A DNA stretch of 64,000 nt from Candidatus Hodarchaeota archaeon. GTDB lineage: Archaea; Asgardarchaeota; Odinarchaeia; Odinarchaeales; JBHLKK01. The DNA is taken from positions 9,378 to 73,377 of the forward strand of contig JBHLKK010000002.1 in NCBI GenBank assembly GCA_048886745.1. The letters run 5' to 3'. Shown in pieces: positions 9,411 to 21,870 of the stretch. How positions within the stretch are numbered: the stretch's first letter is position 1; each line of letters starts with the position of its first letter. A model generated the notes under the pieces. That model saw only the letters and a list, made by a program, of their open reading frames with translations. It made no database searches and had not been told where the DNA came from. Both the position numbers and the translations under genes were made by a program.

Positions 9411-9776
9411 TTGCTTCGAGTCTCGTACATGTTAAAGAGGCGAGCAAAAATGAGTTTAATACTTGCTGTTCCTATTGCATTCATAGTTTGTCTGATAGTA
9501 GTAGGAATAATCTATATTTTTGGAGCAAGAATTGCTCCTCCAAGCAGGAAAGAGGGTGAAGCTGTTCTAACCTACGCGTGCGGGGAAGACATGGATCAAG
9601 AGAAAATCCAATTTAGAATTAATTGGTTATACTATGCAGTTTATTTCGTTATCTTTGACATCATTGCTTTTACCCTTTCTCTATCCATTCAACTTGGGGT
9701 TCTTGAATCGGCATTATTAGCAGTTGCCTATTCCTTTGTTTCGCTTGTAGCGATACTCGTGCTCCTGAGACGATAG
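9411..9776 (+). CDS. NuoA-like small membrane subunit (3 TM)
   Basis: LTYACGEDMD...FRINWLYYAVYFVIFDIIAFTLS matches the NuoA signature (Y-E/A-CG ... F-x3-YY-x4-F-[IV]-IFD-[IV]). Three hydrophobic segments. The real start is probably the internal Met at about 9450 (MSLILAV). Confidence 0.55.
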   Translation: MLRVSYMLKRRAKMSLILAVPIAFIVCLIVVGIIYIFGARIAPPSRKEGEAVLTYACGEDMDQEKIQFRINWLYYAVYFVIFDIIAFTLSLSIQLGVLESALLAVAYSFVSLVAILVLLRR

Positions 9777-9789
9777 AGGTGAAAAAAGA

Positions 9790-10242
9790 ATGGGATTGTT
9801 AAAAAGACTGGTCGATTGGTCTAGACGTAAATCACCTTGGCTACTCCACATGAACACAGGAAGCTGCAATTGTTGCGATATAGAAATCCTTGCTGCTCTG
9901 ATGCCTCGATTCGACATAGAACGATTTGGAGCCCTTCTTAAAGCCAGTCCGAGACATGCTGATGTATTGGTGTGCACAGGACCTGTTACTTTACAGCAGG
10001 CAAAGCGTTTGAAAAGAATCTATGAGCAAACACCGGCCCCGAAGTTTGTCATGGTAGTGGGCACATGTGGAAGTACGGGAGGAGTATTCAGAGGTTGCTA
10101 TCATGCTCATCAGGGAATCGATAATATCATTCCAGTTGATGTTTATGTTCCAGGCTGTCCTGCGAGACCTGAATCCATATTATTCGGGGCAGTAAGATTA
10201 CTTCAGAAATTAGAAGCGATTCAAAAGGGTGAAAGCGCATGA
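9790..10242 (+). CDS. NuoB-like hydrogenase small subunit, second paralog
   Basis: CNCCDIEI, GTCGSTGGVFRGCY and PGCPARPE. RBS GAGGTGA upstream. Confidence 0.85.
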   Translation: MGLLKRLVDWSRRKSPWLLHMNTGSCNCCDIEILAALMPRFDIERFGALLKASPRHADVLVCTGPVTLQQAKRLKRIYEQTPAPKFVMVVGTCGSTGGVFRGCYHAHQGIDNIIPVDVYVPGCPARPESILFGAVRLLQKLEAIQKGESA

Positions 10243-11972
10243 CTGTAGAAACTGAAATTAGTGAGGAAGTATTGTTTAAGCAATTCCCTGAAGAAGGTGA
10301 GATAGTACAATCGCTGCGTGAAGCGCTTGGTGATAAGTTTATTGACAGCAAGATTGTTAGAAAACGCAGAGTATATATTACAGTCGCAGAGGGAGCTCAT
10401 CGCGAGGCAGCTAGCAAGCTTAAGGCAATGGGTATATGGTATACTCCTACCATTGTTGGGTTGGATCAAAAAGAGAGATTCGAGATTCTCTTCCAGTTCT
10501 TCGATAAGAAGAGAAACCTACACATCACAATCAGAGCCCCGGTCGCGAAAGACGAACCAGAGCTGGAAACAATAACGGATCTCTTTCCAGGAACCGCACT
10601 CTATGAACGAGAAATACACGACATGTTTGGCATTGTTTTTAAAAACCATCCTAATTTGACAAAGTTCTTATTGGCTGATATTTGGCCTCCAGACGAATAT
10701 CCTCTGAGGAAAGACTGGCAGCCTACAGGCAAAAAGGTCAAGTCTCGAAGAAAGACATCCTTGGTTGCAGAAGGAGAATACCTAATTCAAGTTGGCCCTC
10801 AGATTCCGACATTGAAAGAACCTATGAACTTCGAGGTTATTGCAGACGGAGAAATTGTAGTTAATATAATTCCTCATCTAGAGTACAATCATCGTGGCAT
10901 AGAAAAAGCCATGGAGCAAAGAACCTTCACGCAAGGGATCTACCTAAGTGAACGGGTTTGCGGAATTTGCAGCCAGCCTCATGCATTCACCTACTGCAGT
11001 GCAGTTGAAAGACTATTGGACATTGACGTTCCAAGGCGGGGACAATACCTCAGGACAATGGTTTATGAAATGAATAGAATTCACAGCCACCTTTTGTGGA
11101 TTGGCGTTGCAGGTCACCTGATCGGTTGGGATACTCTATTTATGTATACATGGCGAGACCGTGAGGTTATTCTAGATCTTACAGAACTTGTAACCGGGGG
11201 ACGGTTAACAGGTGCAATAAACACCATTGGTGGAGCTAGAAGGGACATAAATAGTGATCAAATACATAAACTTCGTAAAGGACTAGATGTACTGGAAGAG
11301 CGAACCAAAGCATACAAGAAGATCGCGCTTAAAGAAGACACTCTGATAAAGAGGTGTCTGGGCGTAGGCATTATGAAACCAGAACTAGCCAGGGATTATG
11401 CTGCGGTTGGACCGACCATTAGAGGATCTGGAATAAGTGCTGATCTACGCTGGGATGATCCAGAACATGGATGCTATGATGAGATTACAGATGTTTTTGA
11501 TCCTATAACATCCGATTTATGCGATGTCGCTGGAAGATTGATTGTTCGTGCAGATGAGACACTCGAATCAGTTAACATGATTCGTTGGATCCTTGACCAT
11601 TTGCCAAGCGGACCGGTGCGAAAGAGAGTACCTAGGAGGATTCCGAGGGCTGAATCTGTGGGAAGGACTGAAGCTCCTCGCGGAGAAGTATATTATTATA
11701 TGATGTCTAATAACACAGACAAGCCAGAACGGGTAAAAATCAAGACGCCAACGCTTGCAAATATTCCTGCGTTCATCGAATCCACAAAGGGACTATACAT
11801 CGCAGACTTCGTGATCAACTTTGGCAGTATTGATCCCTGCATTGCGTGTACGTGTAGGACAACAATTACCGATATAAGCCACCCAAACAAGCCAAAACAT
11901 AGCGTTATGTCACATGAAGAATTAAGGCAGTATGGGATTAAATGGTACAAAGAAAGGAAATGGAGGAAGTAA
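10239..11972 (+). CDS. Group 4 [NiFe]-hydrogenase large subunit, fused NuoC-NuoD-like, second paralog
   Basis: RVCGICSQPHAFTYC near the N-terminal part of the D domain and DPCIACTCR at the C-terminus. Both Ni-ligand CxxC pairs are retained. 4-bp overlap with the upstream gene. Confidence 0.85.
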   Translation: MTVETEISEEVLFKQFPEEGEIVQSLREALGDKFIDSKIVRKRRVYITVAEGAHREAASKLKAMGIWYTPTIVGLDQKERFEILFQFFDKKRNLHITIRAPVAKDEPELETITDLFPGTALYEREIHDMFGIVFKNHPNLTKFLLADIWPPDEYPLRKDWQPTGKKVKSRRKTSLVAEGEYLIQVGPQIPTLKEPMNFEVIADGEIVVNIIPHLEYNHRGIEKAMEQRTFTQGIYLSERVCGICSQPHAFTYCSAVERLLDIDVPRRGQYLRTMVYEMNRIHSHLLWIGVAGHLIGWDTLFMYTWRDREVILDLTELVTGGRLTGAINTIGGARRDINSDQIHKLRKGLDVLEERTKAYKKIALKEDTLIKRCLGVGIMKPELARDYAAVGPTIRGSGISADLRWDDPEHGCYDEITDVFDPITSDLCDVAGRLIVRADETLESVNMIRWILDHLPSGPVRKRVPRRIPRAESVGRTEAPRGEVYYYMMSNNTDKPERVKIKTPTLANIPAFIESTKGLYIADFVINFGSIDPCIACTCRTTITDISHPNKPKHSVMSHEELRQYGIKWYKERKWRK

Positions 11973-11975
11973 GAT

Positions 11976-13022
11976 ATGGTGTTGGAAGCAATTCTCGATA
12001 TACTTCAAATCATACTTTTCCCAGGAATATTCTTCTGTCTGACTTTAGCACTTTTCTATTCATGGATAGACAGAAAATACCATGCCGATCTTCAGAACAG
12101 AATGGGACCGACTTATACAGGGTGGCGAGGGATCCTTCAGCCTTTTGCAGATTTCATAAAACTCTTAGCCAAAGAAGATATCACCCCGGCAGCAGCCGAT
12201 AGGAGGAGTTTCGCCGCTGTACCAATCATAATGCTGGCAGTTCCTCTGACTGCTCTTCTGCTTATACCGATCAGCAGCGTGTCTGGAATAATCACTTTTC
12301 CTGGTGATATCGTGTTTCTGATGTTCTTATCCACAATAATTGCGATTCTTATCTTTCTTGCTGGATGGTTTTCAACAAATGTATTCAGCGACATTGGAGC
12401 CACAAGAGCTGTCCTGCAACTCATTGGATATGAGATACCTTTTATGATTGCAGTGTTCTCTCCGGCTATTCTGGCCGGTTCACTTACGCTTGCACAGGTT
12501 GTTCAGTATCAAGCCGCCAACGGTATGATGCTTTTCCAATTCCCAGCCTTATTTCGAAGCATTCCGATGTGGATTGCCTTTGGCATTTACATGATAGCTT
12601 TGATGGCTGAACTTGAAAAGATCCCGTTAGACATTCCGGAAGCTGAAACTGAAATCGTTGCTGGATGGCAAACTGAATACTCAGGTAAGAAGTTTGCATT
12701 TCTGGTTCTATCAAATGATCTTCACATGCTTTTCGGTGCAGGCTTAGCTGTAACGCTATTCCTGGGTGGACCCTTTGGAATCGAGAAGTTGCCAGGACTA
12801 GCCTGGCTGGATGCCTTTATTTCGACAACACCGGTGGTTAGAGAAATCTGGTATACAACTTGGTTTATATTAAAGACTGCAATAATTGTGCTGATAATTT
12901 CAAACATCAGAACTCTGTTTGCACGATATAGAGTTGATCAGATGGTTCGTGGCTCGTGGAAATATCTGGCACCGATTGCCTTGGTTCAAGTGATGTTAAT
13001 TCAACTAGTAAGTCTGATCTAA
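11976..13022 (+). CDS. NuoH-like membrane subunit, second paralog
   Basis: RMGPTYTGWRGILQPFADFIKLLAKED is the NuoH motif. Polytopic. Confidence 0.8.
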   Translation: MVLEAILDILQIILFPGIFFCLTLALFYSWIDRKYHADLQNRMGPTYTGWRGILQPFADFIKLLAKEDITPAAADRRSFAAVPIIMLAVPLTALLLIPISSVSGIITFPGDIVFLMFLSTIIAILIFLAGWFSTNVFSDIGATRAVLQLIGYEIPFMIAVFSPAILAGSLTLAQVVQYQAANGMMLFQFPALFRSIPMWIAFGIYMIALMAELEKIPLDIPEAETEIVAGWQTEYSGKKFAFLVLSNDLHMLFGAGLAVTLFLGGPFGIEKLPGLAWLDAFISTTPVVREIWYTTWFILKTAIIVLIISNIRTLFARYRVDQMVRGSWKYLAPIALVQVMLIQLVSLI

Positions 13023-13026
13023 GAAG

Positions 13027-13419
13027 GTGATGTTAATGCCTTTCCCTGGAGCTATGCAAGGTGAACTGTTAAAACATCTTACTAAGAAGAGGGCAACTGT
13101 GCTCTATCCATTTGAGAAGTTGGAGTTAGCCGAAGCGTATAGGGGTCGATGGTCTCATAATATGGCCAAATGTACTGGTTGCGGTCTCTGTGCGAAGGAC
13201 TGCCCGAGTGAGGCCATACAGCTAGTCCAAACCGATATAACTCCTGGTGGCAGGTATCCTGTTTGCTATTTGAGTCGATGTATGTTCTGTGCTCAATGTG
13301 AAGATACTTGTCCGACAGGCGCTATCCAACTCACAAGTGAATATGAGCTTGCTGATTATCAGAAAAGGATTATCGATAGTGCCGAACCTGAAGGATTTAG
13401 ATACGAAAAAGGTAAATAA
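13027..13419 (+). CDS. NuoI-like 2x[4Fe-4S] ferredoxin subunit, second paralog
   Basis: CTGCGLCAKDCP and CMFCAQCEDTCP. Confidence 0.75.
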   Translation: MMLMPFPGAMQGELLKHLTKKRATVLYPFEKLELAEAYRGRWSHNMAKCTGCGLCAKDCPSEAIQLVQTDITPGGRYPVCYLSRCMFCAQCEDTCPTGAIQLTSEYELADYQKRIIDSAEPEGFRYEKGK

Positions 13420-13612: not shown

Positions 13613-13834
13613 ATGGCTACAAAGTTAACGAATGCTCGTGTCGAGAGAATAATGAGGGAGACAGGGAAGAAGGAAGGGATTCCTCGTGTGTCTGCGGATG
13701 CAGTTGTTTCGATGAACGATGCTGCGACAAAGTTCATCCGTAGCGTCTGTGCAACTGCAGCCGGTTTAGCAAAGAAGGACCGACGGAAAACCGTCCTGCC
13801 ACGAGACATTGATCAAGCTGTAAAACAAGCATAA
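13613..13834 (+). CDS. Archaeal histone-fold protein
   Basis: 73 aa. RVERIMRE...ISVDAVV..NDAATKFIRSVCATAAGLAKKDRRKTVLPRDIDQAVK has the three-helix histone-fold layout (HMf/CBF-NFY type) with the conserved RKT..DI loop. An oligo-T tract follows the stop. Confidence 0.7.
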   Translation: MATKLTNARVERIMRETGKKEGIPRVSADAVVSMNDAATKFIRSVCATAAGLAKKDRRKTVLPRDIDQAVKQA

Positions 13835-14073: not shown

Positions 14074-14634
14074 ATGCTACTGAACAATGCGTTGTTTAAG
14101 GTAATAGTCACTGGAGAGGGTGGTGTTGGAAAGACCTGCCTTGTTCAACGCTATACTAGGGGCACTTTTTATCACACAAGAACAACCATTGGAGTAGGAT
14201 TTGCCACAGCTGACGTTCATCTCAATGGAAGGGATATAAAACTCCAGATTTGGGACTTTGGTGGCGAAGAACGTTTTAGAAGACTTCTTCCCTCTTTCTG
14301 CAAAGGAGCAAGCGGCGCATTAGTCCTATTTGACTTGACTAGATTTCCCACTTTTCTTCATCTCAACGAATGGTTGGATCTCATAAGAGATAACACCAGC
14401 AATATCCCGCTGGTTCTGGCGGGATCAAAGGCCGATCTTGCCAATATGAGAGTTGTTGACAGGGAACAGATCGCAGAACTAACGAGGAAATACAATATCG
14501 AGCACTATTACGAAGTCTCCGCGAAAGATGGAATGAACATAGAGGTGGTTTTTACTCAAATTGCTGAACTAATAGTTAACTCAATTGAAACTACCAGCAT
14601 GAATGATGAACACGGCATAATGAGAATACAATAG
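14074..14634 (+). CDS. Rab/Ras-like small GTPase (divergent)
   Basis: G1 GEGGVGKT, switch-II WDFGGEERF, G4 AGSKAD, G5 EVSAKDG. Size and motif spacing are Rab-like. Confidence 0.8.
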   Translation: MLLNNALFKVIVTGEGGVGKTCLVQRYTRGTFYHTRTTIGVGFATADVHLNGRDIKLQIWDFGGEERFRRLLPSFCKGASGALVLFDLTRFPTFLHLNEWLDLIRDNTSNIPLVLAGSKADLANMRVVDREQIAELTRKYNIEHYYEVSAKDGMNIEVVFTQIAELIVNSIETTSMNDEHGIMRIQ

Positions 14635-14647
14635 GAGGTTTAATCTG

Positions 14648-15631
14648 TTGAGTGTTACTGATCAAAACTTCTTGGAGACCAAGCAGCCCGTTACATGCGA
14701 AATGTGTGGTGAGAAGTTTAACATAAAAATTGAGAGAGAATATCTTAATGATGTCAAGCGTTTTCCGTTCTCTTACACATTTGTACACGGAGCACCACCA
14801 CATGCGGTTGTTGTATATCTTGATAAGGATCTGAACGTTAGGGGAACAGAAACATCTGATCTAACAAGTATAAAGAGCGGTGAACTGCACACTCCTGCTG
14901 TAGATGTTACGCCTGATACTCGTCCTGTCCTTTCAGCAAGGGATATCGGAAAGCTGGAAATGGACGGAGATACAGTTTTTATACTTAGGGAGATCGACGG
15001 TGTGGCAACTGTTAAGGAAATCGCTGAGAAAACTAAAATGGATTTAGAAAAGGTCTGTCAAAAAGTCCAATATTTGGTTGACTGCGGTGTTCTAATGCCG
15101 CTACTGCCTGTTGATCTCTGTGACGTGGACTATCATCGTATTTATGAACTCGTACCCCCCTATAATCCAAACAATGTAACAATGACCGCGGGTGCCCAAA
15201 GAAGTTCTGCAACCTGCACAATTCTCAGCAATCTTGATAAGGACTACACTGTTCTGGAGATTGCTCGAGGCCTCGAAAAAGCCGGCTTTGATAAATCTCC
15301 TAGAGAAGTCCTTGATACTTTGGAATACTTCAGGGCCAGGGATGTAGTTCGAGTAAAAGGCTTGACTAAGACTGATATACCTGAAGAGTGGAATGATCCA
15401 AAATTCAATCAAGTACCAAGATTCGCAGATGGCATAGAAGAAGAAAGCATACTTAAGAAGGTACCAATTCCTGATAAAACACACTACTTCATTATCAAGA
15501 ACATTGGAAAAAGGAGTATACTAGATACCACATTAGGTTTAATTGGGCTAGGCATAGAGACAAATCCCAGAAAAGTACTAGAGATTATAAGGAAGTATCA
15601 AAAACAAGGCTTGGTATATGCTACATTTTAG
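14648..15631 (+). CDS. Hypothetical protein: N-terminal zinc-ribbon/'HGxPPH' module followed by about three winged-helix-like repeats
   Basis: CEMCGEKF...FVHGAPPHAVVVYLDKDLNVRG N-terminal module. Then repeated segments (e.g. REIDGVATVKEIAEKTKMDLEKVCQKVQYLVDCGVL and LEIARGLEKAGFDKSPREVLDTLEYFRARDVVRV) with an H-T-H-wing character. Immediately downstream of the Rab-like GTPase. Confidence 0.5.
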   Translation: MSVTDQNFLETKQPVTCEMCGEKFNIKIEREYLNDVKRFPFSYTFVHGAPPHAVVVYLDKDLNVRGTETSDLTSIKSGELHTPAVDVTPDTRPVLSARDIGKLEMDGDTVFILREIDGVATVKEIAEKTKMDLEKVCQKVQYLVDCGVLMPLLPVDLCDVDYHRIYELVPPYNPNNVTMTAGAQRSSATCTILSNLDKDYTVLEIARGLEKAGFDKSPREVLDTLEYFRARDVVRVKGLTKTDIPEEWNDPKFNQVPRFADGIEEESILKKVPIPDKTHYFIIKNIGKRSILDTTLGLIGLGIETNPRKVLEIIRKYQKQGLVYATF

Positions 15632-15749
15632 GCATACACCTTCTCTCTCCTTTTTCGGCTTTCTTTGTTCAATAATGCTTAATAGCAAATGGTACCATAA
15701 TCTAATCTGTCAATATTAATCATTACGCCATATAGAGGAGGTAGAAATA

Positions 15750-16022
15750 GTGACAAAGCCTGAAACCATAAGATCCAGGTGTAAGTTATGTGATAGCATC
15801 ATTGATATTCCTGTGCCTGAAGATTTCGATGCTAGTGAAGGCGGCGTCGCTCCGATAGTCTATGTACACGGCAATCCTCCTCACACAATAATCGTATATG
15901 TGGATGTCAATCTATCGGTCAGAAGCAATTTCGTTGTTAGAACCACTGATCCCAAAAAAGCATTAAGCGAGCTGCGAAAGAATACACTCAAAAGAATGAT
16001 GAAACGTGTTAAATCGCTCTGA
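15750..16022 (+). CDS. Small protein: stand-alone copy of the zinc-ribbon/'HGxPPH' module
   Basis: CKLCDSIIDIPV...YVHGNPPHTIIVYVDVNLSVRS aligns with the N-terminus of the 14648 product (C-x2-C, about 20 aa, HGxPPH-x3-VYxDxxLxVR). Confidence 0.45.
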   Translation: MTKPETIRSRCKLCDSIIDIPVPEDFDASEGGVAPIVYVHGNPPHTIIVYVDVNLSVRSNFVVRTTDPKKALSELRKNTLKRMMKRVKSL

Positions 16023-16076: not shown

Positions 16077-17042
16077 CTACTTCTCGCCACATCGCTCTAT
16101 CATTAGTTCCCAGTTCTTATCAATATGCCCTTGAATCTGATCGATAATATCGTTGCGTCTTTCCGGTCTGAATAGATGTCTGAACCTACCTTGAATCTTA
16201 AGAAACTCTTCAACGGGTTTCTTTTTTTCTGGCTTTCTGACTATGATCTTGCTTGGTGTAGATAGCCTGTAAACGATCTTTCCGTTTTCCAAAACTGCCT
16301 CCCAAAGCGGGAAGAAACAAGTTTCAACTGCTATTCTTGAAATCTTTATTGATATGGCTGGATCATGCCTCCACCCTCTCTGACATGAAGCAAAGAAGTG
16401 TAGGAATGCTGGACCTTGTGCATCATACGCCCTCTGGGCCTTTTGCATCAAGTCTCTCCAATAGGCTGGTGATGCAGTTGCTACATAAGGTATTTCATGT
16501 TCCACTGCAATCCTTGCAATGGGTTTTTTCCATTCAACCTTTCCAGGGATGACTTTCCCTGCAGGGCTTGTTGTCGTCCAAGCGTATCGAGACGTACCGC
16601 CGCTTCTCTGGATACCAGTATTCATGTATGCTTCATTATCAAGCAATACATACACAAAATCATGTCCTCGTTCTAGAGCTCCAGAAAGGGCTTGAATTCC
16701 GATATCTATTGTGCCGCCATCTCCAGCCAGTGCAATAACATTGATATGTCTTTTCAATTTACCACGTCTTCTAAAGCTTTTGAGAGCAGCCTCAATACCA
16801 CTCGCTGTAGCAGCTGCATTTTCAAATGCATTATGAATCCATGGTATTTTCCAAGAAGTATATGGATAGATGCTGGTTGAGACTTCGAGACAGCCTGTAG
16901 CGCTGACAGCTATAATAGGATCCTTGCTTGCTTTCAATAGAAGTCTTGTTGCGGTTCCTTCTCCACATCCAGGACACAATCTGTGACCTCCAGAAAGCAA
17001 TTCCTCTGGAGATTTTGCCAGTTCCTTGGCATTCAACGACAT
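16077..17042 (-). CDS. porB: Pyruvate/2-oxoacid:ferredoxin oxidoreductase beta subunit
   Basis: LCPGCGEG N-terminus. TPP-binding GDGGTIDIGIQALSGALERGHDFVYVLLDNEAYMNTGIQ. Confidence 0.85.
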   Translation of the reverse strand: MSLNAKELAKSPEELLSGGHRLCPGCGEGTATRLLLKASKDPIIAVSATGCLEVSTSIYPYTSWKIPWIHNAFENAAATASGIEAALKSFRRRGKLKRHINVIALAGDGGTIDIGIQALSGALERGHDFVYVLLDNEAYMNTGIQRSGGTSRYAWTTTSPAGKVIPGKVEWKKPIARIAVEHEIPYVATASPAYWRDLMQKAQRAYDAQGPAFLHFFASCQRGWRHDPAISIKISRIAVETCFFPLWEAVLENGKIVYRLSTPSKIIVRKPEKKKPVEEFLKIQGRFRHLFRPERRNDIIDQIQGHIDKNWELMIERCGEK

Positions 17043-17046
17043 CTTA

Positions 17047-18270
17047 CTATCTCACCCCCAGATATTGAATTCTTTCTTTAACCTTGCCAGTCTTGGCAAT
17101 TCTCAGTCCATCCTTAAACGCTTTTCTGATGAGTTCTTGGGGCACGTCACGACCACCCAGGCCATAAATATAATTTACTACAATTGGCTTTTCTTCTTTT
17201 TCGTAAAAGATCGCTCTCAACTCGTTAAATACCGGACCTCCGTATCCTCCTGGAACCGAGCTTCTATCCAGAACTGCGACAACCTTGATGCCCTCCAGTG
17301 CTTCTGACAATTTCTCGTATGGGAATGGTCTAAATACTCTAAGCTTCAGTGATCCGACTTTTGCTCCTTCATCTTGCATACTCTTTGCCACGTATCTAGT
17401 CGTACCTGCTGTCGAACCCAGACTCAAGATCGCCACATCGGCATCTTCCAGTCCTTGCTGTTCGATCATACCATAGGTTCGCCCTGAGATCTCGCCATAC
17501 TCCTTATCGATATCTTCGATGGCTTTCTCAACGTTGTTCATTGCCAAGATTTGCTGCATCTTAATTTCGAAATAATAGTCTGTCAATGCGAGATCGCCAA
17601 AACTCAGCGGATTGTCTGGATCTAGTACATATGGAACTTCCTTGCCCCCAGCATTTACCTTGGGAGTTACTTTCTCTCCTATGAAGTCTCTGACTGCTTC
17701 ATCTGGAAGCACGCTCACGTTTTCCAATGTGTGGCTTAGTACAAAACCGTCCAGCGTATCCATAATCGGTAATTGGACCTTAGGATGTTCAGCTATCCTC
17801 CATGCTTGGATTGTGGTATCATAGGCTTCTTGGCTGTTCTCACAGTAAATTTGTATCCAACCGCTATCTCGAGCCCCCATACTATCTGAATGGTCACAAT
17901 GAATATTGATGGGTGCTGAAAGCGCACGATTGACAACCGTCATAACTATTGGCAGACGTAATCCTGCAGCTATGTAGAGAATCTCCCACATTAATGCCAA
18001 ACCCTGACTAGCAGTTGCGGTGTATGCTCTTCCTCCTACAGCGGCCGCTCCCACGCATGCAGATAAAGCCGAATGTTCAGATTCAACAGCTACGAACTCA
18101 GTATTAACTTCTCCATCGGCAACATATTCTGAGAATCTCTCAACAATTATCGTCTGGGGTGTTATTGGATAAGCTGCCACGACATCTGGGTCGCATTGTT
18201 TTGCAGCAAAGGCTGCAGCCTCGTCGCCATTTAGAGCTAAAATCTTTTTCTTCACGGCCATATCGATCAC
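17047..18270 (-). CDS. porA: Pyruvate/2-oxoacid:ferredoxin oxidoreductase alpha subunit
   Basis: ILALNGDEAAAFAAKQCDPDVVAAYPITPQT N-terminus is typical of POR alpha. 407 aa. Confidence 0.85.
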   Translation of the reverse strand: MIDMAVKKKILALNGDEAAAFAAKQCDPDVVAAYPITPQTIIVERFSEYVADGEVNTEFVAVESEHSALSACVGAAAVGGRAYTATASQGLALMWEILYIAAGLRLPIVMTVVNRALSAPINIHCDHSDSMGARDSGWIQIYCENSQEAYDTTIQAWRIAEHPKVQLPIMDTLDGFVLSHTLENVSVLPDEAVRDFIGEKVTPKVNAGGKEVPYVLDPDNPLSFGDLALTDYYFEIKMQQILAMNNVEKAIEDIDKEYGEISGRTYGMIEQQGLEDADVAILSLGSTAGTTRYVAKSMQDEGAKVGSLKLRVFRPFPYEKLSEALEGIKVVAVLDRSSVPGGYGGPVFNELRAIFYEKEEKPIVVNYIYGLGGRDVPQELIRKAFKDGLRIAKTGKVKERIQYLGVR

Positions 18271-18554
18271 TCCTTAATCATGGTTATTGCTTCAACAGGA
18301 CATTCCTCTGCACAAACACCGCACCCTTTGCAGAAATCATAATCAAAAGAGATCTTTTCTCCATCCCACTTCACCGCTATATCTGGACAGTAAAGCCAAC
18401 ATAACATACAAGTCGTACATTTTTCATGATCTATTATTGGTTTGAATGTACGCCAATCACCTGTGTGATACTCTTCACTAGATTTCCAGGCAACTCCACC
18501 AATGGGTATTTCTTTCCAGCTCTTCTTCTCAGTCACTTGCTTTTGCCTCCTCAT
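18267..18554 (-). CDS. porD: POR delta subunit (2x[4Fe-4S] ferredoxin)
   Basis: CTTCMLCWLYCPD and CKGCGVCAEECP. 4-bp overlap with porA. Confidence 0.8.
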   Translation of the reverse strand: MRRQKQVTEKKSWKEIPIGGVAWKSSEEYHTGDWRTFKPIIDHEKCTTCMLCWLYCPDIAVKWDGEKISFDYDFCKGCGVCAEECPVEAITMIKE

Positions 18555-19104
18555 ATGCTCTCTTAATCAGTTCAACATTCATTTCGCCAACCTTTCCTCT
18601 AAATCTCTCTTTGGTTGCTTTCAGCACACTCTCCAGCTTTGTATACCCTGTTGCCTTTACTAGGGTACCAACCATGGCTGTACTGGTTATCTCCCGTCCA
18701 AGAATCTCTATAGAGAGATCAGTGGCCGGTATTGTCCAGACTCTTTGTGATTTGGCCATTTTGATTTTCTTCTTTAAGTCCGATGGAGAATCTCGCGAAT
18801 TTATCACTATTATGCCATTTTGAATCAATCCGTCAGAAACATCTACAGCATCAAGTAACGTGGGATCTAAGACTACAACGCTTTCCGGCTCATAAATGCC
18901 ACAATGCAAATCTATTGGACTATCCGAAATACGAACATATGCCTCCACGGGAGCACCGCTTCGCTCAGGTCCAAATGCTGGGAAGGACTGAGTATATCGC
19001 CTTTCATGGATCACTGCCTTTGCCAATATCTGTGTCGCGGTCCAAGCACCTTGACCACCTCTGCCATGAAATCTTATCTCTATAATCTTGTCCGCAGACA
19101 CCAC
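18529..19104 (-). CDS. porG: POR gamma subunit
   Basis: IRFHGRGGQGAWTATQILAKA is the signature of the gamma subunit. Operon order gamma-delta-alpha-beta. Confidence 0.8.
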   Translation of the reverse strand: MVSADKIIEIRFHGRGGQGAWTATQILAKAVIHERRYTQSFPAFGPERSGAPVEAYVRISDSPIDLHCGIYEPESVVVLDPTLLDAVDVSDGLIQNGIIVINSRDSPSDLKKKIKMAKSQRVWTIPATDLSIEILGREITSTAMVGTLVKATGYTKLESVLKATKERFRGKVGEMNVELIKRAYEEAKASD

Positions 19105-19215
19105 ATCGCCTCCAGATCATTAGATTAACCATACAACGTGAAATTAGAAGATAGATATAATAGTTATGCCCAAAAAAGGCATGAAAATTGCCAATTAGTT
19201 GTACCATCGGGGGTC

Positions 19216-20088
19216 TCACGGGCCATCTTTTGACAGATGGCTCTTAATAAGCTCCAAACTCAGGCTAAGTGCCTTGACTGAATGCGTTAAGCTTCCCATT
19301 GAGATTACATCAACACCGGTTGCTGCATACTCGTCGACGTTTTCGAATGTGATTCCTCCCGATGCTTCGATAATAACCTTTTCCCTTAATCCTTGATCTC
19401 TTAGCTCAATTATAGTTTGTCTAATCTGATTTGGCTTCATATTATCCAACATAATTATATCTGCCTTCGCTTTAGCTGCCCTCAAGCAGTCTTTGGTATT
19501 CTCGACCTCAATTTCCACCTTCTTGGAGAAGCTAGCCTTGGTTCGAGCGATTGTTATTGCAGTTTCGACATCTCCAACGAGAGTAAGATGATTATCTTTA
19601 ATTAATATGCAATCATCAAGCCTGAATCTATGAGTGTCTCCACCTCCAATCTCTGCGGCCCTTTTATCAAAGTATCTGAGAAGAGGAGCTGTCTTTCTGG
19701 TAACAGCAATCCGAATCCCCGGGTTAATCTTTTTTGCTTTTTCGATGGTTTCGTGAATTGCAGTGGCTATTCCACTCATTCGCATCAGGAAATTGAGTGC
19801 AGTTCGCTCACACGTGAGTATGGCTTTTGCGGATCCTTCGATAATCATAACGGTAGCTCCTTTTTTTTCGACCCTATCGCCATCATTCATTTTGAGTGTA
19901 ACTTCTAATCCCATTTGCTCAAAAAGGGTTTTTGCCTCTCTAATTCCGGCCAGGACGCCGAGCTCTTCGGCTACTATTCTGGCTTTGCCCTGCTCATCTC
20001 CAATTAGTATTTCTGTTGTTATGTCACCAAAACCTACATCTTCATTTAGAGCATGAATAACTCGCTCCTCAAAATCAAAACCCTTCAA
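19216..20088 (-). CDS. nadC: Nicotinate-nucleotide pyrophosphorylase (quinolinate phosphoribosyltransferase)
   Basis: 290 aa with KDNHL...DIIMLDNM...IEASGGI motifs of type II PRTases. Confidence 0.8.
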   Translation of the reverse strand: MKGFDFEERVIHALNEDVGFGDITTEILIGDEQGKARIVAEELGVLAGIREAKTLFEQMGLEVTLKMNDGDRVEKKGATVMIIEGSAKAILTCERTALNFLMRMSGIATAIHETIEKAKKINPGIRIAVTRKTAPLLRYFDKRAAEIGGGDTHRFRLDDCILIKDNHLTLVGDVETAITIARTKASFSKKVEIEVENTKDCLRAAKAKADIIMLDNMKPNQIRQTIIELRDQGLREKVIIEASGGITFENVDEYAATGVDVISMGSLTHSVKALSLSLELIKSHLSKDGP

Positions 20089-21021
20089 TCATGACAACTC
20101 CATCATACGTTCTATGGCCATTCTTGCCCTAGCTGCAATCTTATCGGGGACTTTCACTACGGGGGATTTATTTCTCAATGCAAGAAAAGCCTTCTCCAAG
20201 GTGATATGTTTCATTTGCTTACACACGGCTTCTTCGTTGGCGCAGATAAATGTTTTTCCAGGGATTTCCCGTCTCATTCTTTCAATCAATCCAATCTCAG
20301 TAGCAACTATGAATTCCTTAAAACCTGATTCTTGGGCATGTTTATACATTTGGCCAGTACTACCAACGAAATCTGCTGCTTTTTGAATTTCTGGATCACA
20401 TTCAGGGTGAACCATAAACTCTGCCTGTGGATATTGTTCCTTCTTCATAATGGATTCTCCGCCAAACATTGTATGAACGTAGCAATACCCATCTCTGGGA
20501 ATCGGTATTATTTCTTTATCTGAGATTTTACTTTGAACATACCATGCCAAATTCTTGTCGGGTCCAAAAAGAATCTTATCAGAATCAAGCTTTCTCACAA
20601 CATCTACCGCGTTAGCTGACGTACACATGATATCTGCTTCAGCCTTCGCTTCAGCTAGTGTATTAACATAAAGAACTACAATGGCATCAGGGTGCTGTTT
20701 CTTTGCTTCAACTACTTTGTCCGCGGTAAGCATAGCGGCCATTGGACATCTCGCCTCTATTGCCGGTAGAACCACTCTTTTGTTGGGGTTAAGAATTGAA
20801 GCAGTCTCGGCCATGAAATCAACTCCACAAAAGACGATGTAGTTTGCATCTTCAACTTCGGTGGCCTTGATTGAAAGCTGGAGGGAGTCTCCTATGAAAT
20901 CCGCTATCTCCTGTATCTCAGTTACTTGGTAGTTGTGGATGAGCATTACAGCGTTTTCTCTTTTCTTTAGTTCTAATGTCTTCCTCTGTAACTTACTTAA
21001 CGGAGACATAGTGATCCCCAA
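20089..21021 (-). CDS. nadA: Quinolinate synthase
   Basis: MLIHNYQ and HPECD motifs, 310 aa. Directly abuts nadC. Confidence 0.85.
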   Translation of the reverse strand: MGITMSPLSKLQRKTLELKKRENAVMLIHNYQVTEIQEIADFIGDSLQLSIKATEVEDANYIVFCGVDFMAETASILNPNKRVVLPAIEARCPMAAMLTADKVVEAKKQHPDAIVVLYVNTLAEAKAEADIMCTSANAVDVVRKLDSDKILFGPDKNLAWYVQSKISDKEIIPIPRDGYCYVHTMFGGESIMKKEQYPQAEFMVHPECDPEIQKAADFVGSTGQMYKHAQESGFKEFIVATEIGLIERMRREIPGKTFICANEEAVCKQMKHITLEKAFLALRNKSPVVKVPDKIAARARMAIERMMELS

Positions 21022-21024
21022 TAA

Positions 21025-21870
21025 TTAAGTTCCAATTTGTACGTGTTCACCAATTTTCCTTAATGTTCTTATAACTGAGAGTGCTGCAAGATAGCTTGTT
21101 TTGGGATTGTATAAGGAAGGCACATTCTCTACATGGATATATATGGTGCCAAAATCGCCCTTTGCAGCAATCTCGTGCACATTCTTATGTACCGTTGGAT
21201 CCGCGACTATTCTAACTCTCGTTCTTTCGGCACCAATCCCTGCTAAACTCAAAACCGCAGCAACATTAATATTCTGTGGAAACATTCTTGCTCCCTCTTC
21301 TGCATCCCCCTCATAAACCACGGTTGGCTTGTTGATTGACTCTAAATCAATTTCATGTTGAACGATGTAGGGTGCTCCCTTTAGCGTATTGGGAGGCTTA
21401 CGTGATGTCAGTGTCACTTCGGTAAGATTAGCAGTCGAAGCAGATTTTACTCCGTCCAAACCAGCTATTGCTCCAGATGGAAGATAGACCATCTTATCAT
21501 TTCTCTCTGCGGTTTCTTCAATTTCTTTCAGCAACTGTTTATCTACAAGGGCTCCTATGCTTAGTATTAGCAGGTCTTTGCCTGAGTTTAGAATTTTGAT
21601 TGCATATTCTTTGACAACTTCCTGAGAAGCTGCTTCTATAATCAGGTTAATTTGATCGTTTACAATAAGTTCATCTGGCGTTTTAGCGACCTCGGGTTTT
21701 TTGACCATTCTCTGAATACACTTCTCCGCGTTCTCCTTTATTACGTCATATACCATGACTAATTCTGTGTCTCCTGCTTTGCCATCTTTGATTGCATCAG
21801 AGATAATATATCCAATTGCTCCGCACCCAATCAAACCTACTTTGAGTTTTGCCATCTGTTTCGCCAGCAC
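21025..21870 (-). CDS. nadX: L-aspartate dehydrogenase
   Basis: N-terminal Rossmann motif VGLIGCGAIG. 281 aa. First gene of a nadX-nadA-nadC operon. Confidence 0.75.
   Translation of the reverse strand: MLAKQMAKLKVGLIGCGAIGYIISDAIKDGKAGDTELVMVYDVIKENAEKCIQRMVKKPEVAKTPDELIVNDQINLIIEAASQEVVKEYAIKILNSGKDLLILSIGALVDKQLLKEIEETAERNDKMVYLPSGAIAGLDGVKSASTANLTEVTLTSRKPPNTLKGAPYIVQHEIDLESINKPTVVYEGDAEEGARMFPQNINVAAVLSLAGIGAERTRVRIVADPTVHKNVHEIAAKGDFGTIYIHVENVPSLYNPKTSYLAALSVIRTLRKIGEHVQIGT

What the first reader, a model, noticed from the sequence alone, without database searches (positions are those of the whole stretch)
14074..16022. Rab-like GTPase with non-canonical catalytic motifs, followed by two genes sharing a novel zinc-ribbon/'HGxPPH' module
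Motif deviations in the GTPase at 14074:
- G1 is canonical (GEGGVGKT).
- Switch II reads WDFGGEE, so the Ras Q61-equivalent catalytic glutamine is Glu.
- G4 is AGSKAD instead of NKxD, so the guanine-contacting Asn is Ser.
These changes predict altered hydrolysis and possibly altered nucleotide specificity or GAP dependence.

The shared module:
- The next two genes (14648-15631 and 15750-16022) each begin with a block of about 60 aa: C-x2-C, about 20 residues, [FY]VHG[AN]PPH[AT][IV][IV]VY[LV]D.[DN]L.VR[GS].
- I cannot assign this block to any known family.
- In the larger protein it is followed by about three winged-helix-like repeats.

Conserved paralogous modules next to a small GTPase are the usual footprint of GTPase effectors or GAP/GEF-type regulators. 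This could be an undescribed GTPase-partner domain.
Basis: partly seen in the sequence, partly recalled or inferred. Interest (0 to 1): 0.75.

Follow-up and report, generated by a model that had tools for sequence, protein, structure and literature searches.

The report
Asgard GTPase with zinc-module partner proteins
In an Asgard (Hodarchaeota) archaeon, a Rab-like GTPase gene is followed by two genes that share an unannotated zinc-binding domain, and across Asgard metagenomes this domain is repeatedly encoded beside, or fused to, small GTPases, which makes it a good candidate for a new GTPase-partner domain.

Summary
Three co-directional genes, all under purifying selection, encode:
- a Rab-like GTPase (Glu at the Ras-Q61 position, SKAD in G4);
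- a 327-aa protein;
- a 90-aa protein that shares a ~60-aa N-terminal module with the 327-aa protein.

The module is not a chance paralogy.
- An HMMER scan of 1.84 billion representatives finds 307 proteins, and all named ones but one are Asgard.
- The signature is C-x2-C…H-G-x-P-x-H…D…R, with C/C/H/D/R at 98% or more and the second His at 91%.

In 91 independent metagenome loci, 15% of the genes directly beside a module gene are small GTPases, against 1.1% further away (p = 1e-9). Most are upstream in operon-like spacing. Two proteins fuse the module to a Ras domain.

The 327-aa protein's three winged helices match only NPRL2/NPRL3 (GATOR1) significantly. Its paralogues carry a probable Roadblock domain where it carries the zinc module.

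Caveats:
- An Odin-like orthologue follows ubiquitin, not a GTPase.
- The GTPase motif "deviations" are clade traits.
- Binding and GAP/GEF activity are untested.

Verdict: a real, apparently undescribed GTPase-associated domain. The mechanism is inferred.

The parts
14074..14634 (+). Rab-like small GTPase, 186 aa, with no C-terminal Cys for prenylation
   Evidence: Pfam Ras 7e-42 and Roc 2e-26. Best PDB relatives are Rab11B/Rab43/Rab2 at about 1e-36. dN/dS 0.12-0.18. A 57%-identical orthologue that keeps both motif variants is at L135:310-822.
14113..14136 (+). G1/P-loop GEGGVGKT (res 14-21), canonical
   Evidence: Sequence read directly.
14251..14271 (+). Switch II WDFGGEE (res 60-66). E65 occupies the Ras Q61 / Rab catalytic Gln position.
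   Evidence: HMMER alignment to Rab11B and Rab43. hmmalign against HRAS shows the same Glu in 8 of 23 module-adjacent GTPases.
14425..14436 (+). G4 SKAD (res 118-121). Ser replaces the Asn of NKxD and the Asp is retained.
   Evidence: T or S at this position in 15/23 module-adjacent GTPases.
14634..14638 (+). GGAGG Shine-Dalgarno-like motif overlapping the GTPase stop codon, 9 nt before the TTG start of the next gene. The 13-nt gap implies a GTPase + P327 operon.
   Evidence: Sequence read directly. Same arrangement in L003, L004, L007 and L008.
14648..15631 (+). P327: zinc module, acidic linker, then three winged-helix domains
   Evidence: 100% identical to a Hodarchaeota MAG protein, with 84% and 49% (Odinarchaeia) homologues. 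AF2 pLDDT 79.6. dN/dS 0.06-0.07.
14681..14875 (+). Zinc module of P327 (res 12-76): C17-x2-C20 ... H47-G-A-P-P-H52 ... Y57-x-D59 ... V64-R65. Predicted beta-meander.
   Evidence: Module HMM hit at res 12-76. Conservation over 147 representatives: C17 99%, C20 100%, H47 99%, G48 90%, P50 86%, H52 91%, D59 99%, R65 98%.
14948..15103 (+). Winged helix 1 (about res 101-152), acidic, PqqD/Lrp-like ('DG..T..EIA' motif)
   Evidence: AF2 secondary structure. Faint Pfam hits to NPR2, HTH_47 and MarR_2. In the paralogue family this domain hits PqqD and Lrp chains at E about 3e-4. Net charge -5.
15125..15367 (+). Winged helix 2 (about res 160-240), including the Y-x-R-[IV]-Y-E-L-x-P-P motif shared with permuted wH+module proteins
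   Evidence: AF2 model. The motif is shared with P0009, P0010, P0011, L060 and L087.
15419..15622 (+). Winged helix 3 (about res 258-325)
   Evidence: AF2 model. Conserved in P0003, P0009 and P0010.
15640..15669 (+). Pyrimidine/T-rich tract just after the P327 stop. Possibly an archaeal oligo-T terminator, so P90 may be transcribed separately here.
   Evidence: Sequence only; inference. In the Odin-like locus the two genes are only 12 nt apart.
15737..15741 (+). GGAGG Shine-Dalgarno-like motif 8 nt before the GTG start of P90
   Evidence: Sequence read directly.
15750..16022 (+). P90: zinc module plus a C-terminal basic helix
   Evidence: Homologues at 80-89% identity. Odin-like orthologue P0008. 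A 75-aa orthologue P0089 lies directly after a GTPase. AF2 pLDDT 84.2. dN/dS 0.05-0.10.
15762..15941 (+). Zinc module of P90 (res 5-64): C11-x2-C14 ... H40-G-N-P-P-H45 ... Y50-x-D52 ... V57-R58. Five predicted beta strands.
15951..16016 (+). C-terminal helix of P90 (res 68-89). Net charge +7 for res 65-90. Only moderately amphipathic.
   Evidence: AF2 model. Charge and hydrophobic moment 0.25-0.37.

Best explanation
What it is: a small-GTPase switch cassette of an Asgard (Hodarchaeota) archaeon.
- A Rab-like GTPase is co-transcribed with P327. P327 carries an N-terminal Cys2-His2-type zinc-binding beta-module and an NPRL2/NPRL3-like array of three winged helices.
- P90 follows. It is a minimal paralogue consisting of the same module plus a basic helix.
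- The module belongs to a large, unannotated, essentially Asgard-specific domain family.

Shown here:
- The three genes are real.
- The module family exists, with a conserved C/C/H/(H)/D/R signature.
- The module is statistically coupled to small-GTPase genes and is sometimes fused to a Ras domain.
- The winged-helix array resembles GATOR1 subunits.

Inferred function:
- The module is a GTPase-docking platform. It plays the role that Roadblock/longin domains play in MglB, Ragulator and NPRL2/3, and it occupies the position of a probable Roadblock domain in paralogues that have the same winged-helix array.
- P327 and P90 bind the neighbouring GTPase, each alone or as a module-module pair. They act as its dedicated regulator (GAP or GEF) or as a nucleotide-state-dependent effector or scaffold.
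- The winged helices (wH1 is acidic and PqqD-like, so probably protein- or peptide-binding) and the basic P90 helix recruit further partners.
- The Glu at the catalytic Gln position suggests hydrolysis chemistry that differs from canonical Rabs and may depend on the partner.
- The near-invariant Arg (R65 in P327, R58 in P90) could be an arginine finger, or it could simply form a hairpin salt bridge with the invariant Asp.
For: 1. Real genes and an operon.
- dN/dS is 0.05-0.18.
- A 13-nt gap with GGAGG separates the GTPase and P327.
- The arrangement is conserved in four related contigs.

2. The module family.
- 307 proteins at E of 1e-3 or less among 1.84 billion representatives. 144 of the best 150 carry the module, in many architectures.
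- Signature conservation was measured.
- 12 of the 13 named cluster members are Asgard.

3. GTPase linkage.
- In 91 metagenome loci, 23/151 immediate neighbours are small GTPases against 4/358 at gene distance 2 or more (OR 15.9, p = 1.1e-9).
- After 60% dereplication, 12 of 47 module-protein clusters have an adjacent GTPase. Most are upstream on the same strand with gaps of -4 to 115 nt.
- Pfam Ras is the most frequent family among 119 dereplicated neighbours, with 18 members.
- The linked GTPases are divergent, 28-46% identical to the window GTPase.
- In four contexts chosen without regard to neighbours, two have an adjacent GTPase.

4. Fusions. L042 and L123 encode the module followed by a Ras domain (Pfam 1e-28 and 3e-26).

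5. A third lineage (L135, L136) has the same POR/NadA synteny. Its GTPase is a 57%-identical orthologue that keeps WDLGGEE and GSKAD, and a P90-like gene follows 26 nt downstream.

6. The winged-helix array.
- The 12 best Foldseek PDB hits are all Npr2, NPRL2 or NPRL3 chains (E 1.7e-5 to 5e-3). The next hit is at E 0.055.
- Faint Pfam NPR2 hits fall on the same profile region in P327 and in P0014.

7. Domain displacement.
- P0009 and P0010 share the full winged-helix array (E 1e-54 and 4e-53); P0014 (E 6e-15), P0042 and P0059 match its first two winged helices and P0156 only the second. All six carry a different N-terminal domain in place of the zinc module.
- That domain has an alpha-beta-beta-alpha pattern and gives a weak but full-length match to a Roadblock chain (E 0.55).

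8. P327 is acidic (pI 5.45, wH1 net -5), which is atypical for a DNA-binding wHTH.
Against: - No direct evidence of binding or of any effect on nucleotide turnover. No multimer prediction could be run.
- The only orthologue of P327 outside the Hod group (Odin-like L001, L002) follows RING and ubiquitin genes at the edge of an E2/ESCRT-II/Vps4 cluster, with no GTPase nearby.
- The downstream POR/NadA synteny is shared by all three lineages. Part of the adjacency could therefore be inherited gene order rather than function.
- Most module families, including the largest one (19 loci, ~103-aa solo proteins), have no GTPase neighbour.
- The Roadblock-plus-3wH paralogue examined has no GTPase neighbour either.
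- The genome is GTPase-rich: three GTPase genes lie within 11 kb of each other in the window.
- The NPRL2/3 resemblance is structural only. TM-scores are about 0.2 and the AF2 alignment had 5 sequences. Pfam NPR2 is far below its threshold (14.2 against 27.5 bits).
- Zinc binding is inferred from conserved ligand-type residues, and 9% of members lack the second His.
- Neighbour statistics rest on my own simple gene caller and on loci selected with a pattern that requires both His residues.
Confidence: 0.6

Rival explanations
1. P327, and module proteins in general, are transcription regulators. A Zn-ribbon-like N-terminus and winged helix-turn-helix domains bind DNA and control nearby genes, and the GTPase is only a regulated or neighbouring gene.
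For: - Apart from GATOR1 subunits, the structural neighbours are wHTH regulators such as Lrp/AsnC, Fur, MarR and ArsR.
- The module co-occurs with wHTH and with the ligand-binding V4R domain (8 of 150), as in one-component regulators.
- The P90 tail is strongly basic (+7).
- Zn-ribbon plus HTH is a common archaeal transcription-factor layout (general knowledge).
Against: - P327 is acidic overall and wH1 has net charge -5.
- wH1 is closest to PqqD/RRE-type peptide-binding winged helices.
- GATOR1 subunits, which do not bind DNA, are the only significant Foldseek hits.
- The hypothesis does not explain the 14-fold GTPase enrichment restricted to the directly adjacent gene, the tight co-directional spacing, or the fusions to a Ras domain.
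- Many members are ~90-110-aa solo modules with no HTH at all.
Confidence: 0.12
2. The P327/P90 pair belongs to the ubiquitin-ESCRT sorting machinery. P327 (a zinc-binding head plus tandem winged helices) would be a Vps36-like ESCRT-II-type adaptor, possibly the 'undiscovered partner' of monomeric Odin Vps22. The GTPase adjacency in Hodarchaeota would be secondary.
For: - In the Odin-like contigs the co-directional order is RING-like gene, ubiquitin, P322, P103, directly beside E2, EAP30 (Vps22/36), Vps25 and Vps4.
- ESCRT-II subunits are built from tandem winged helices, and yeast Vps36 uses zinc fingers to bind ubiquitin and Vps28 (PMC10936438, PMC9192718).
- Odin Vps22 is monomeric and may need an unknown partner (PMC9192718).
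- One module protein is fused to a RING finger (P0058).
Against: - There are no EAP30 or ESCRT-II Pfam hits.
- Hodarchaeia are reported to lack ESCRT components (PMC10936438), yet they keep the pair under strong purifying selection.
- The pair sits at the edge of the Odin cluster and shares its other flank (POR/NadA) with the Hod loci, so the adjacency may be incidental.
- Ubiquitin or ESCRT families were not among the 25 most frequent Pfam families in 119 module-gene neighbours.
Confidence: 0.1
3. In this particular locus the three genes are neighbours without a shared function. The GTPase landed by chance next to a conserved P327-P90-POR block in a GTPase-rich genome, and the module has some other role, or several roles.
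For: - Three small-GTPase genes lie within 11 kb of each other in the window.
- The Odin-like orthologous block lacks the GTPase.
- Most module families show no GTPase neighbour.
- The module occurs with very diverse partner domains: TPR, DegV, V4R, RING, and a helicase as neighbour.
Against: - The 13-nt spacing with a ribosome-binding site overlapping the stop codon argues for co-translation.
- An orthologous GTPase with the same E/SKAD variants is again directly upstream of a P90-like gene in a lineage that lacks P327 at that site.
- The family-wide adjacency enrichment (p = 1e-9) and the fusions make chance an unlikely explanation for a GTPase neighbour of this domain in particular.
Confidence: 0.15

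Closest known systems
NPRL2/NPRL3 (yeast Npr2/Npr3), the GAP core of GATOR1/SEACIT for RagA/Gtr1
   Same: - Two related proteins are encoded or used as a pair.
- There is a link to a small GTPase.
- NPRL2/3 are described as a longin domain plus two or more wHTH repeats (PMC3747258).
   Different: - The N-terminal longin domain, which carries the catalytic Arg of NPRL2, is absent. It is replaced by a ~60-aa zinc beta-module.
- P90 has no winged helices at all.
- The neighbouring GTPase is Rab-like, not Rag-like, and has no Roadblock C-terminal domain.
- No DEPDC5 equivalent is known.
- Sequence similarity is sub-threshold (Pfam NPR2 14.2 bits against a cut-off of 27.5).
Asgard 'NPRL2-like' and Roadblock/longin multidomain proteins (Liu et al., bioRxiv 10.1101/2020.10.19.343400)
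   Same: - P0009 and P0010 share the full winged-helix array of P327 (E 1e-54 and 4e-53); P0014 (E 6e-15), P0042 and P0059 share its first two winged helices and P0156 only the second. All come from the same kinds of organisms.
- They have an N-terminal alpha-beta-beta-alpha domain with a weak Roadblock match.
   Different: - P327 carries the zinc module instead of the Roadblock/longin-type domain.
- I could not confirm that these paralogues are the asCOG family described in that paper.
ArvA-ArvB-ArvC operon of Euryarchaeota/DPANN (vesiculating GTPase; PMC10927574)
   Same: An archaeal small GTPase is encoded in an operon with two small accessory proteins, one of which (ArvC, DUF2072) is a Zn-ribbon protein of unknown function.
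   Different: - P327 and P90 give no Pfam DUF2072 or DUF2073 hit at E up to 1.
- The ligand pattern differs: C-x2-C plus H-x4-H.
- The GTPase is closest to Rab11/Rab2, and the paper reports ArvA as rare in Asgard.
MglA/MglB, Ragulator and other Roadblock/longin GTPase platforms
   Same: - A small, often paired, non-enzymatic-looking domain is encoded next to or fused with a small GTPase.
- The proposed role is the same: docking and regulation.
   Different: - The relationship is functional analogy only.
ArfGAP zinc-finger domain
   Same: A zinc-stabilised small domain that acts on a small GTPase and presents an invariant Arg shortly after the metal ligands (from general knowledge and reference 72 of PMC10927574).
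   Different: - ArfGAP has four Cys (C-x2-C-x16-C-x2-C) in an alpha/beta fold.
- There is no sequence or fold match to the module.
Eukaryotic Rab GTPases (Rab11/Rab2/Rab43) and Asgard Rab-like GTPases
   Same: - Best sequence matches at about 1e-36.
- WDxxG, the TIGV switch I and G5 SAK are all present.
   Different: - Glu replaces the catalytic Gln and Ser replaces the Asn of NKxD.
- There is no C-terminal prenylation Cys.
- Both variants are common in the module-linked clade.

Membership tests
Ras-superfamily small GTPase (Rab-like) | G domain with G1 GxxxxGK[ST], switch-I Thr, G3 DxxG, G4 [NT]KxD and G5 SAK | tested here: met
   Pfam Ras 143 bits against a cut-off of 21.6. All motifs are readable. 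G4 is the SKxD variant.
Ras-superfamily small GTPase (Rab-like) | Catalytic Gln after DxxG (Ras Q61) | tested here: not met
   Glu65 aligns to the Gln of Rab11B, Rab43 and HRAS. The same Glu is found in 8/23 module-adjacent GTPases and in the L135 orthologue.
Ras-superfamily small GTPase (Rab-like) | C-terminal Cys motif for prenylation (eukaryotic Rabs) | tested here: not met
   The C-terminus reads ...NDEHGIMRIQ, with no Cys.
New C2H2-type zinc beta-module family (defined here) | C-x2-C, 24-30 residues, H-G-x-P-x-H, x4, [YF]-x-D, x4, [VI]-R | tested here: met
   Both P327 (res 17-65) and P90 (res 11-58) carry every signature residue. Module HMM scores are 110 and about 115 bits.
New C2H2-type zinc beta-module family (defined here) | Actual zinc binding | not testable with these tools
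   Inferred from the conserved Cys/Cys/His/His and from the predicted knuckle plus beta-turn geometry.
Classical zinc ribbon | Two CxxC (or CxxH) knuckles on beta-hairpins, with fold similarity to known ribbons | tested here: inconclusive
   [not shown]
NPRL2/NPRL3 (Pfam NPR2/NPR3) | N-terminal longin domain | tested here: not met
   The N-terminus of P327 is the ~65-residue all-beta zinc module.
NPRL2/NPRL3 (Pfam NPR2/NPR3) | C-terminal array of winged helices resembling the solved GATOR1 subunits | tested here: met
   [not shown]
NPRL2/NPRL3 (Pfam NPR2/NPR3) | Sequence membership (Pfam gathering score) | tested here: not met
   NPR2 scores 14.2 bits, E 0.019, against a cut-off of 27.5.
NPRL2/NPRL3 (Pfam NPR2/NPR3) | GAP activity toward a Rag-type GTPase within a DEPDC5-containing complex | not testable with these tools
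   Needs an experiment. The neighbouring GTPase is Rab-like, not Rag-like.
ArvC (DUF2072) / ArvB (DUF2073) | Pfam DUF2072 or DUF2073 match | tested here: not met
   No such hit for P327 or P90 at E up to 1. Neither family is among the 25 families listed (of 30 with any match at E <= 1e-3) for the 150 module-family members scanned.
ESCRT-II (Vps22/Vps25/Vps36) | EAP30 or Vps25 Pfam match, or specific fold similarity to ESCRT-II tandem winged helices | tested here: not met
   [not shown]
ESCRT-II (Vps22/Vps25/Vps36) | Location in the ubiquitin/ESCRT gene cluster | tested here: inconclusive
   True for the Odin-like orthologue. Not true in the window or in L003, L004, L007, L008 or L135.
DNA-binding wHTH transcription factor | Match to a regulator family and a basic DNA-contacting surface | tested here: inconclusive
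   Only sub-threshold wHTH Pfam hits. P327 has pI 5.45 and wH1 has net charge -5. DNA binding itself is not testable here.
Known anti-phage defence systems (PADLOC) | Match to a defence-system protein model | tested here: not met
   Only faint hits with E above 0.004, to a P-loop and to a CARF-associated wHTH.

The most novel reading that the evidence does not exclude
The C2H2 beta-module is a previously unrecognised class of small-GTPase-binding platform that arose in Asgard archaea and can stand in for Roadblock/longin domains. P327 and P90 would form a GATOR1-like (NPRL2/NPRL3-like) regulatory pair for a Glu-type Rab-like GTPase, with the near-invariant Arg after the zinc site acting as an arginine finger. 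This would be a new, zinc-scaffolded GAP mechanism at the root of eukaryote-like GTPase regulation.
Probability: 0.15. Interest if true: 0.85.

Novelty: new variant of a known kind. Interest (0 to 1): 0.68.

Why it matters
Asgard archaea encode dozens of eukaryote-like small GTPases, but almost none can be paired with a regulator or effector. A structural study of Asgard GTPases, Roadblock and TRAPPC3 proteins notes that GTPase genes are generally not in operons with such partners, which makes matching hard (PMC10933270).

This work points to an unannotated domain family of at least 300 clusters that is enriched about 14-fold directly beside GTPase genes. It is sometimes fused to a Ras domain, and it replaces a probable Roadblock domain in proteins with an NPRL2/3-like architecture.

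That yields concrete, testable GTPase-partner pairs. The window trio is one, and at least a dozen other operon families are available.

If the module binds or regulates GTPases, it adds a new element to the pre-eukaryotic GTPase toolkit. It would also bear on the origin of GATOR1-type regulators. If it does not, the family still needs a name and a function.

Tried and rejected
Searches that gave little or nothing:
- Word-indexed homologue searches found only 3-5 close relatives each. They greatly underestimated the family, which the exhaustive HMMER scan then revealed.
- The scan of GTDB species genomes with the family alignment returned only two close relatives, because its pattern was too narrow.
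I replaced it with a hand-made degenerate DNA pattern. That returned 120 loci, 29 of which were chance hits and were discarded.
- The afdb50 fold library was unavailable, so no AlphaFold-database neighbours were obtained.
- Literature searches found no description of the module. The held library is partial, so this is not proof of novelty.

Ideas rejected:
- ESCRT-II/Vps36 identity: there is no fold or HMM support.
- ArvC/DUF2072 identity: no HMM hit.
- A defence-system role.
- A structured RNA in the region.
- The P90 helix as a membrane-targeting amphipathic helix: the hydrophobic moment is only 0.25-0.37.
- A profile of the Roadblock-like paralogues did not reach NPRL2 by sequence in PDB.
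- The antisense 127-aa ORF at 15101-15484 lies inside P327 and is treated as an artefact of the sense-strand constraint.


Full report
**Observation**

The window is from an Asgard archaeon. The 327-aa protein is 100% identical to a protein of a Candidatus Hodarchaeota MAG.

- The first is a bona fide Ras-superfamily G domain (Pfam Ras 7e-42). It is closest to Rab11, Rab43 and Rab2 among solved structures (about 1e-36).
- The printed alignments confirm that Glu65 (WDFGGEE) takes the place of the catalytic Gln and Ser118 (GSKAD) the place of the Asn of NKxD. G1, the switch-I TIGV, the G4 Asp and G5 SAK are canonical. There is no C-terminal Cys.
- The GTPase stop codon overlaps a GGAGG 9 nt ahead of the TTG start of the 327-aa gene (P327), so these two are almost certainly co-translated.
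- The 90-aa gene (P90) follows after 118 nt. It has its own GGAGG, and a T-rich tract lies between the two genes.
- All three genes are under strong purifying selection against two related contigs (dN/dS 0.05-0.18).
- No Rfam family and no defence-system model matches the region.

**The shared module**

P327 and P90 align over 51 residues (E 2e-8 for the pair). Adding orthologues leaves C, C, H, G, P, H, Y, D, V and R invariant. The ligand pattern is therefore C-x2-C, 25-26 residues, then H-x4-H, a Cys2-His2-type site rather than a four-Cys ribbon.

Word-indexed searches found only a handful of close relatives. An exhaustive HMMER scan of 1.84 billion cluster representatives found 307 proteins at E of 1e-3 or less. 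144 of the best 150 carry the module.

Conservation over 147 representatives is C17 99%, C20 100%, H47 99%, G48 90%, P50 86%, H52 91%, D59 99% and R65 98%.

The module occurs in many arrangements:
- alone (75-115 aa);
- with one winged helix (about 150 aa);
- with several winged helices (about 320 aa);
- with V4R (8 of 150), TPR, DegV or RING domains;
- in tandem;
- at the C-terminus of larger proteins.

Of the 13 named cluster members, 12 are Asgard (Hod-, Hermod-, Odin-, Loki-, Wukong-archaeota and 'Promethearchaeota') and one is labelled Korarchaeota.

**Association with GTPases**

I scanned JGI metagenome contigs with a back-translated pattern for HGxPxH-x4-[YF][LIV]D-x4-[VI]R. Of 120 loci, 91 carry a true module gene. 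I then used a simple gene caller and a GTPase HMM built in the sandbox.

- 23 of 151 genes directly adjacent to a module gene are small GTPases, against 4 of 358 at gene distance 2 or more (odds ratio 15.9, Fisher p = 1.1e-9).
- After dereplication at 60% identity there are 47 module-protein clusters. A GTPase lies directly upstream in 8 of the 40 clusters that have an upstream neighbour, and directly downstream in 5 of 42.
- These GTPases are mostly on the same strand, with gaps of -4 to 115 nt.
- An independent Pfam scan of 119 dereplicated neighbours puts Ras first, with 18 members.
- The linked GTPases are diverse, 28-46% identical to the window GTPase. This is not one recent operon copied around.
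- Two proteins (L042, L123) are direct fusions of the module to a Ras domain (Pfam 1e-28 and 3e-26).
- Of four further contexts fetched without regard to neighbours, two have an adjacent GTPase.
- A third lineage (L135, L136) shares the downstream POR/QRPTase/NadA synteny. It has a 57%-identical GTPase that keeps WDLGGEE and GSKAD. A 75-aa P90-like gene follows 26 nt later, with no P327 in between.

The association is not universal. The largest cluster (about 103-aa solo proteins, 19 loci) never has a GTPase neighbour. It accounts for most of a Hel308-like helicase signal among the neighbours.

**The GTPase motifs**

Among 23 module-adjacent GTPases, 8 have Glu and 15 have Gln at the Q61 position. 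At the first G4 position, 14 have Thr, 6 Asn and 1 Ser.

The 'deviations' are therefore traits of this clade. They are conserved in the orthologue and so are presumably functional.

From general knowledge:
- The G4 Asp, not the Asn, sets guanine specificity.
- Thr at this position is normal in Rho-family proteins.
- A Q61E change in H-Ras has been reported to retain, or even increase, intrinsic hydrolysis. This last point is recalled from memory and was not checked here.

Altered specificity is thus not predicted, and the direction of any effect on hydrolysis is open.

**The rest of P327**

The AF2 model (pLDDT 79.6, pTM 0.69, 5-sequence alignment) shows the beta-module, a linker and three winged helices.
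- The 12 best Foldseek hits are all Npr2, NPRL2 or NPRL3 chains (E 1.7e-5 to 5e-3). The next hit is at E 0.055.
- TM-scores are low, so the similarity lies in the succession of domains, not in their relative placement.
- Faint Pfam NPR2 hits fall on the same profile region in P327 and in the paralogue P0014.
- NPRL2/3 are described as a longin domain followed by two or more wHTH repeats (PMC3747258). NPRL2-like proteins have been reported in Asgard archaea (bioRxiv 10.1101/2020.10.19.343400).

Six representatives share all or part of the winged-helix array of P327 but lack the module. P0009 (E 1e-54) and P0010 (E 4e-53) cover the whole array, P0014 (E 6e-15), P0042 and P0059 its first two winged helices, and P0156 only the second. 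All six instead have an N-terminal alpha-beta-beta-alpha domain with a weak, full-length match to a Roadblock chain (E 0.55). The zinc module and a probable Roadblock domain thus occupy the same position in homologous proteins. This is the main reason I propose that the module is a GTPase platform.

P327 is acidic (pI 5.45). wH1 has net charge -5 and resembles PqqD-type peptide-binding winged helices. The P90 tail is strongly basic.

**Counter-evidence**

- The only P327 orthologue outside the Hod group (49% identity, labelled Odinarchaeia) keeps the P327-P90 pair and the POR/NadA flank. Upstream, however, it follows a RING-like gene and ubiquitin, next to E2, EAP30, Vps25 and Vps4, with no GTPase nearby.
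- This supports an ESCRT/ubiquitin-adaptor reading. Odin Vps22 is monomeric and may need an unknown partner (PMC9192718).
- Against that reading, no ESCRT-II structure appears among the fold hits. Hodarchaeia are also reported to lack ESCRT (PMC10936438), yet they conserve the pair.
- A paralogue of the Roadblock-like type has no GTPase neighbour.
- The window itself holds two further GTPase genes within 10 kb, so chance adjacency is not negligible for any single locus.

**Conclusion**

The module is an apparently undescribed, Asgard-wide zinc-binding domain that is genomically, and occasionally physically, coupled to small GTPases. In this locus it comes in a protein with a GATOR1-subunit-like winged-helix array, plus a minimal paralogue.

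Whether it binds the GTPase, and whether it acts as GAP, GEF or effector, is inference.

Known analogues:
- Roadblock/longin platforms;
- GATOR1;
- the euryarchaeal ArvABC operon, whose ArvC is a Zn-ribbon protein (PMC10927574);
- ArfGAP zinc fingers.

Membership in each of these families was tested and is not met.

Noticed in passing
window 23477-25315 (+); also L007 17084-18922: A 612-aa protein fuses an N-terminal Ras-family GTPase domain (Pfam Ras 9e-52) to a peptidase M20 domain with its dimerisation domain. This is an unusual GTPase-peptidase architecture, and it is conserved in a related contig.
   Followed up: no
window 22354-23199 (-): A 281-aa Arf/Roc-like GTPase with an N-terminal extension of about 125 aa that has no Pfam match. 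It is divergently oriented to the Ras-M20 fusion gene.
   Followed up: no
window 13613-13834 (+): An archaeal histone gene (73 aa, CBFD_NFYB_HMF 1.5e-15) lies directly upstream of the GTPase. The histone-GTPase order is kept in L003 and L004.
   Followed up: partly
L001 5351-5572 and 5667-5936 (also L002): In the Odin-like contig, a RING-H2-like 73-aa ORF and a ubiquitin gene sit immediately upstream of the P327 orthologue, co-directional with it. They are next to E2 (UQ_con), EAP30, Vps25 (ESCRT-II) and Vps4.
   Followed up: partly
window 16077-21870 (-); L001 7290-12969; L135 1137-6076: The block POR (four subunits), QRPTase, NadA, and Asp dehydrogenase where the contig reaches that far, is syntenic downstream of the module gene(s) in three lineages that are only 36-57% identical in the upstream proteins.
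   Followed up: partly
Metagenome loci such as L027, L029, L044, L073, L101, L124: The most abundant module family (about 103-aa solo proteins, 19 loci) never neighbours a GTPase. It appears to account for much of a strong neighbour signal from a Hel308-like helicase: DEAD 15, ResIII 14 and Helicase_dom4_arc 7 of 119 neighbours.
   Followed up: no
P0058, P0027/P0031/P0045, L026/L122, P0092/P0111, P0021/P0034/P0046/P0066: The module is also fused to a RING-H2 finger (P0058), V4R domains (8 of 150), DegV (2) and long TPR arrays. It also occurs as a tandem pair in front of a conserved ~230-aa C-terminal domain. P0066 adds a ~430-aa N-terminal region of unknown type.
   Followed up: no
P0077, P0078, P0099, P0115, P0121, P0134, P0135, P0142, P0147, P0151: One subfamily places the module at the extreme C-terminus of larger proteins and ends in a distinctive LDHDFQVRRRR motif. 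P0069 (939 aa) combines a large N-terminal region, a probable membrane segment, a segment that looked Roadblock-like by eye (untested) and a C-terminal module.
   Followed up: no
L130 1449-2894 (-) and 3921-4466 (-): Next to module protein P0016 lies a 481-aa Ras/Arf-type GTPase fused to a response-regulator receiver domain. A TIR_2-domain protein and a PAS/HATPase/receiver hybrid kinase are nearby.
   Followed up: no
window 9411-13419 (+): Upstream lies a complex-I-like / group-4 [NiFe]-hydrogenase-like module that includes a 577-aa fused 30-kDa/49-kDa (NiFeSe_Hases) subunit, an NADHdh subunit and a ferredoxin subunit. The Pfam labels come from the syntenic L003.
   Followed up: no
window 15101-15484 (-); L003 5354-5734 (-): A 127-aa antisense ORF lies inside P327 and is also open in the related contig. 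It is most likely a by-product of the conserved sense frame rather than a gene.
   Followed up: no
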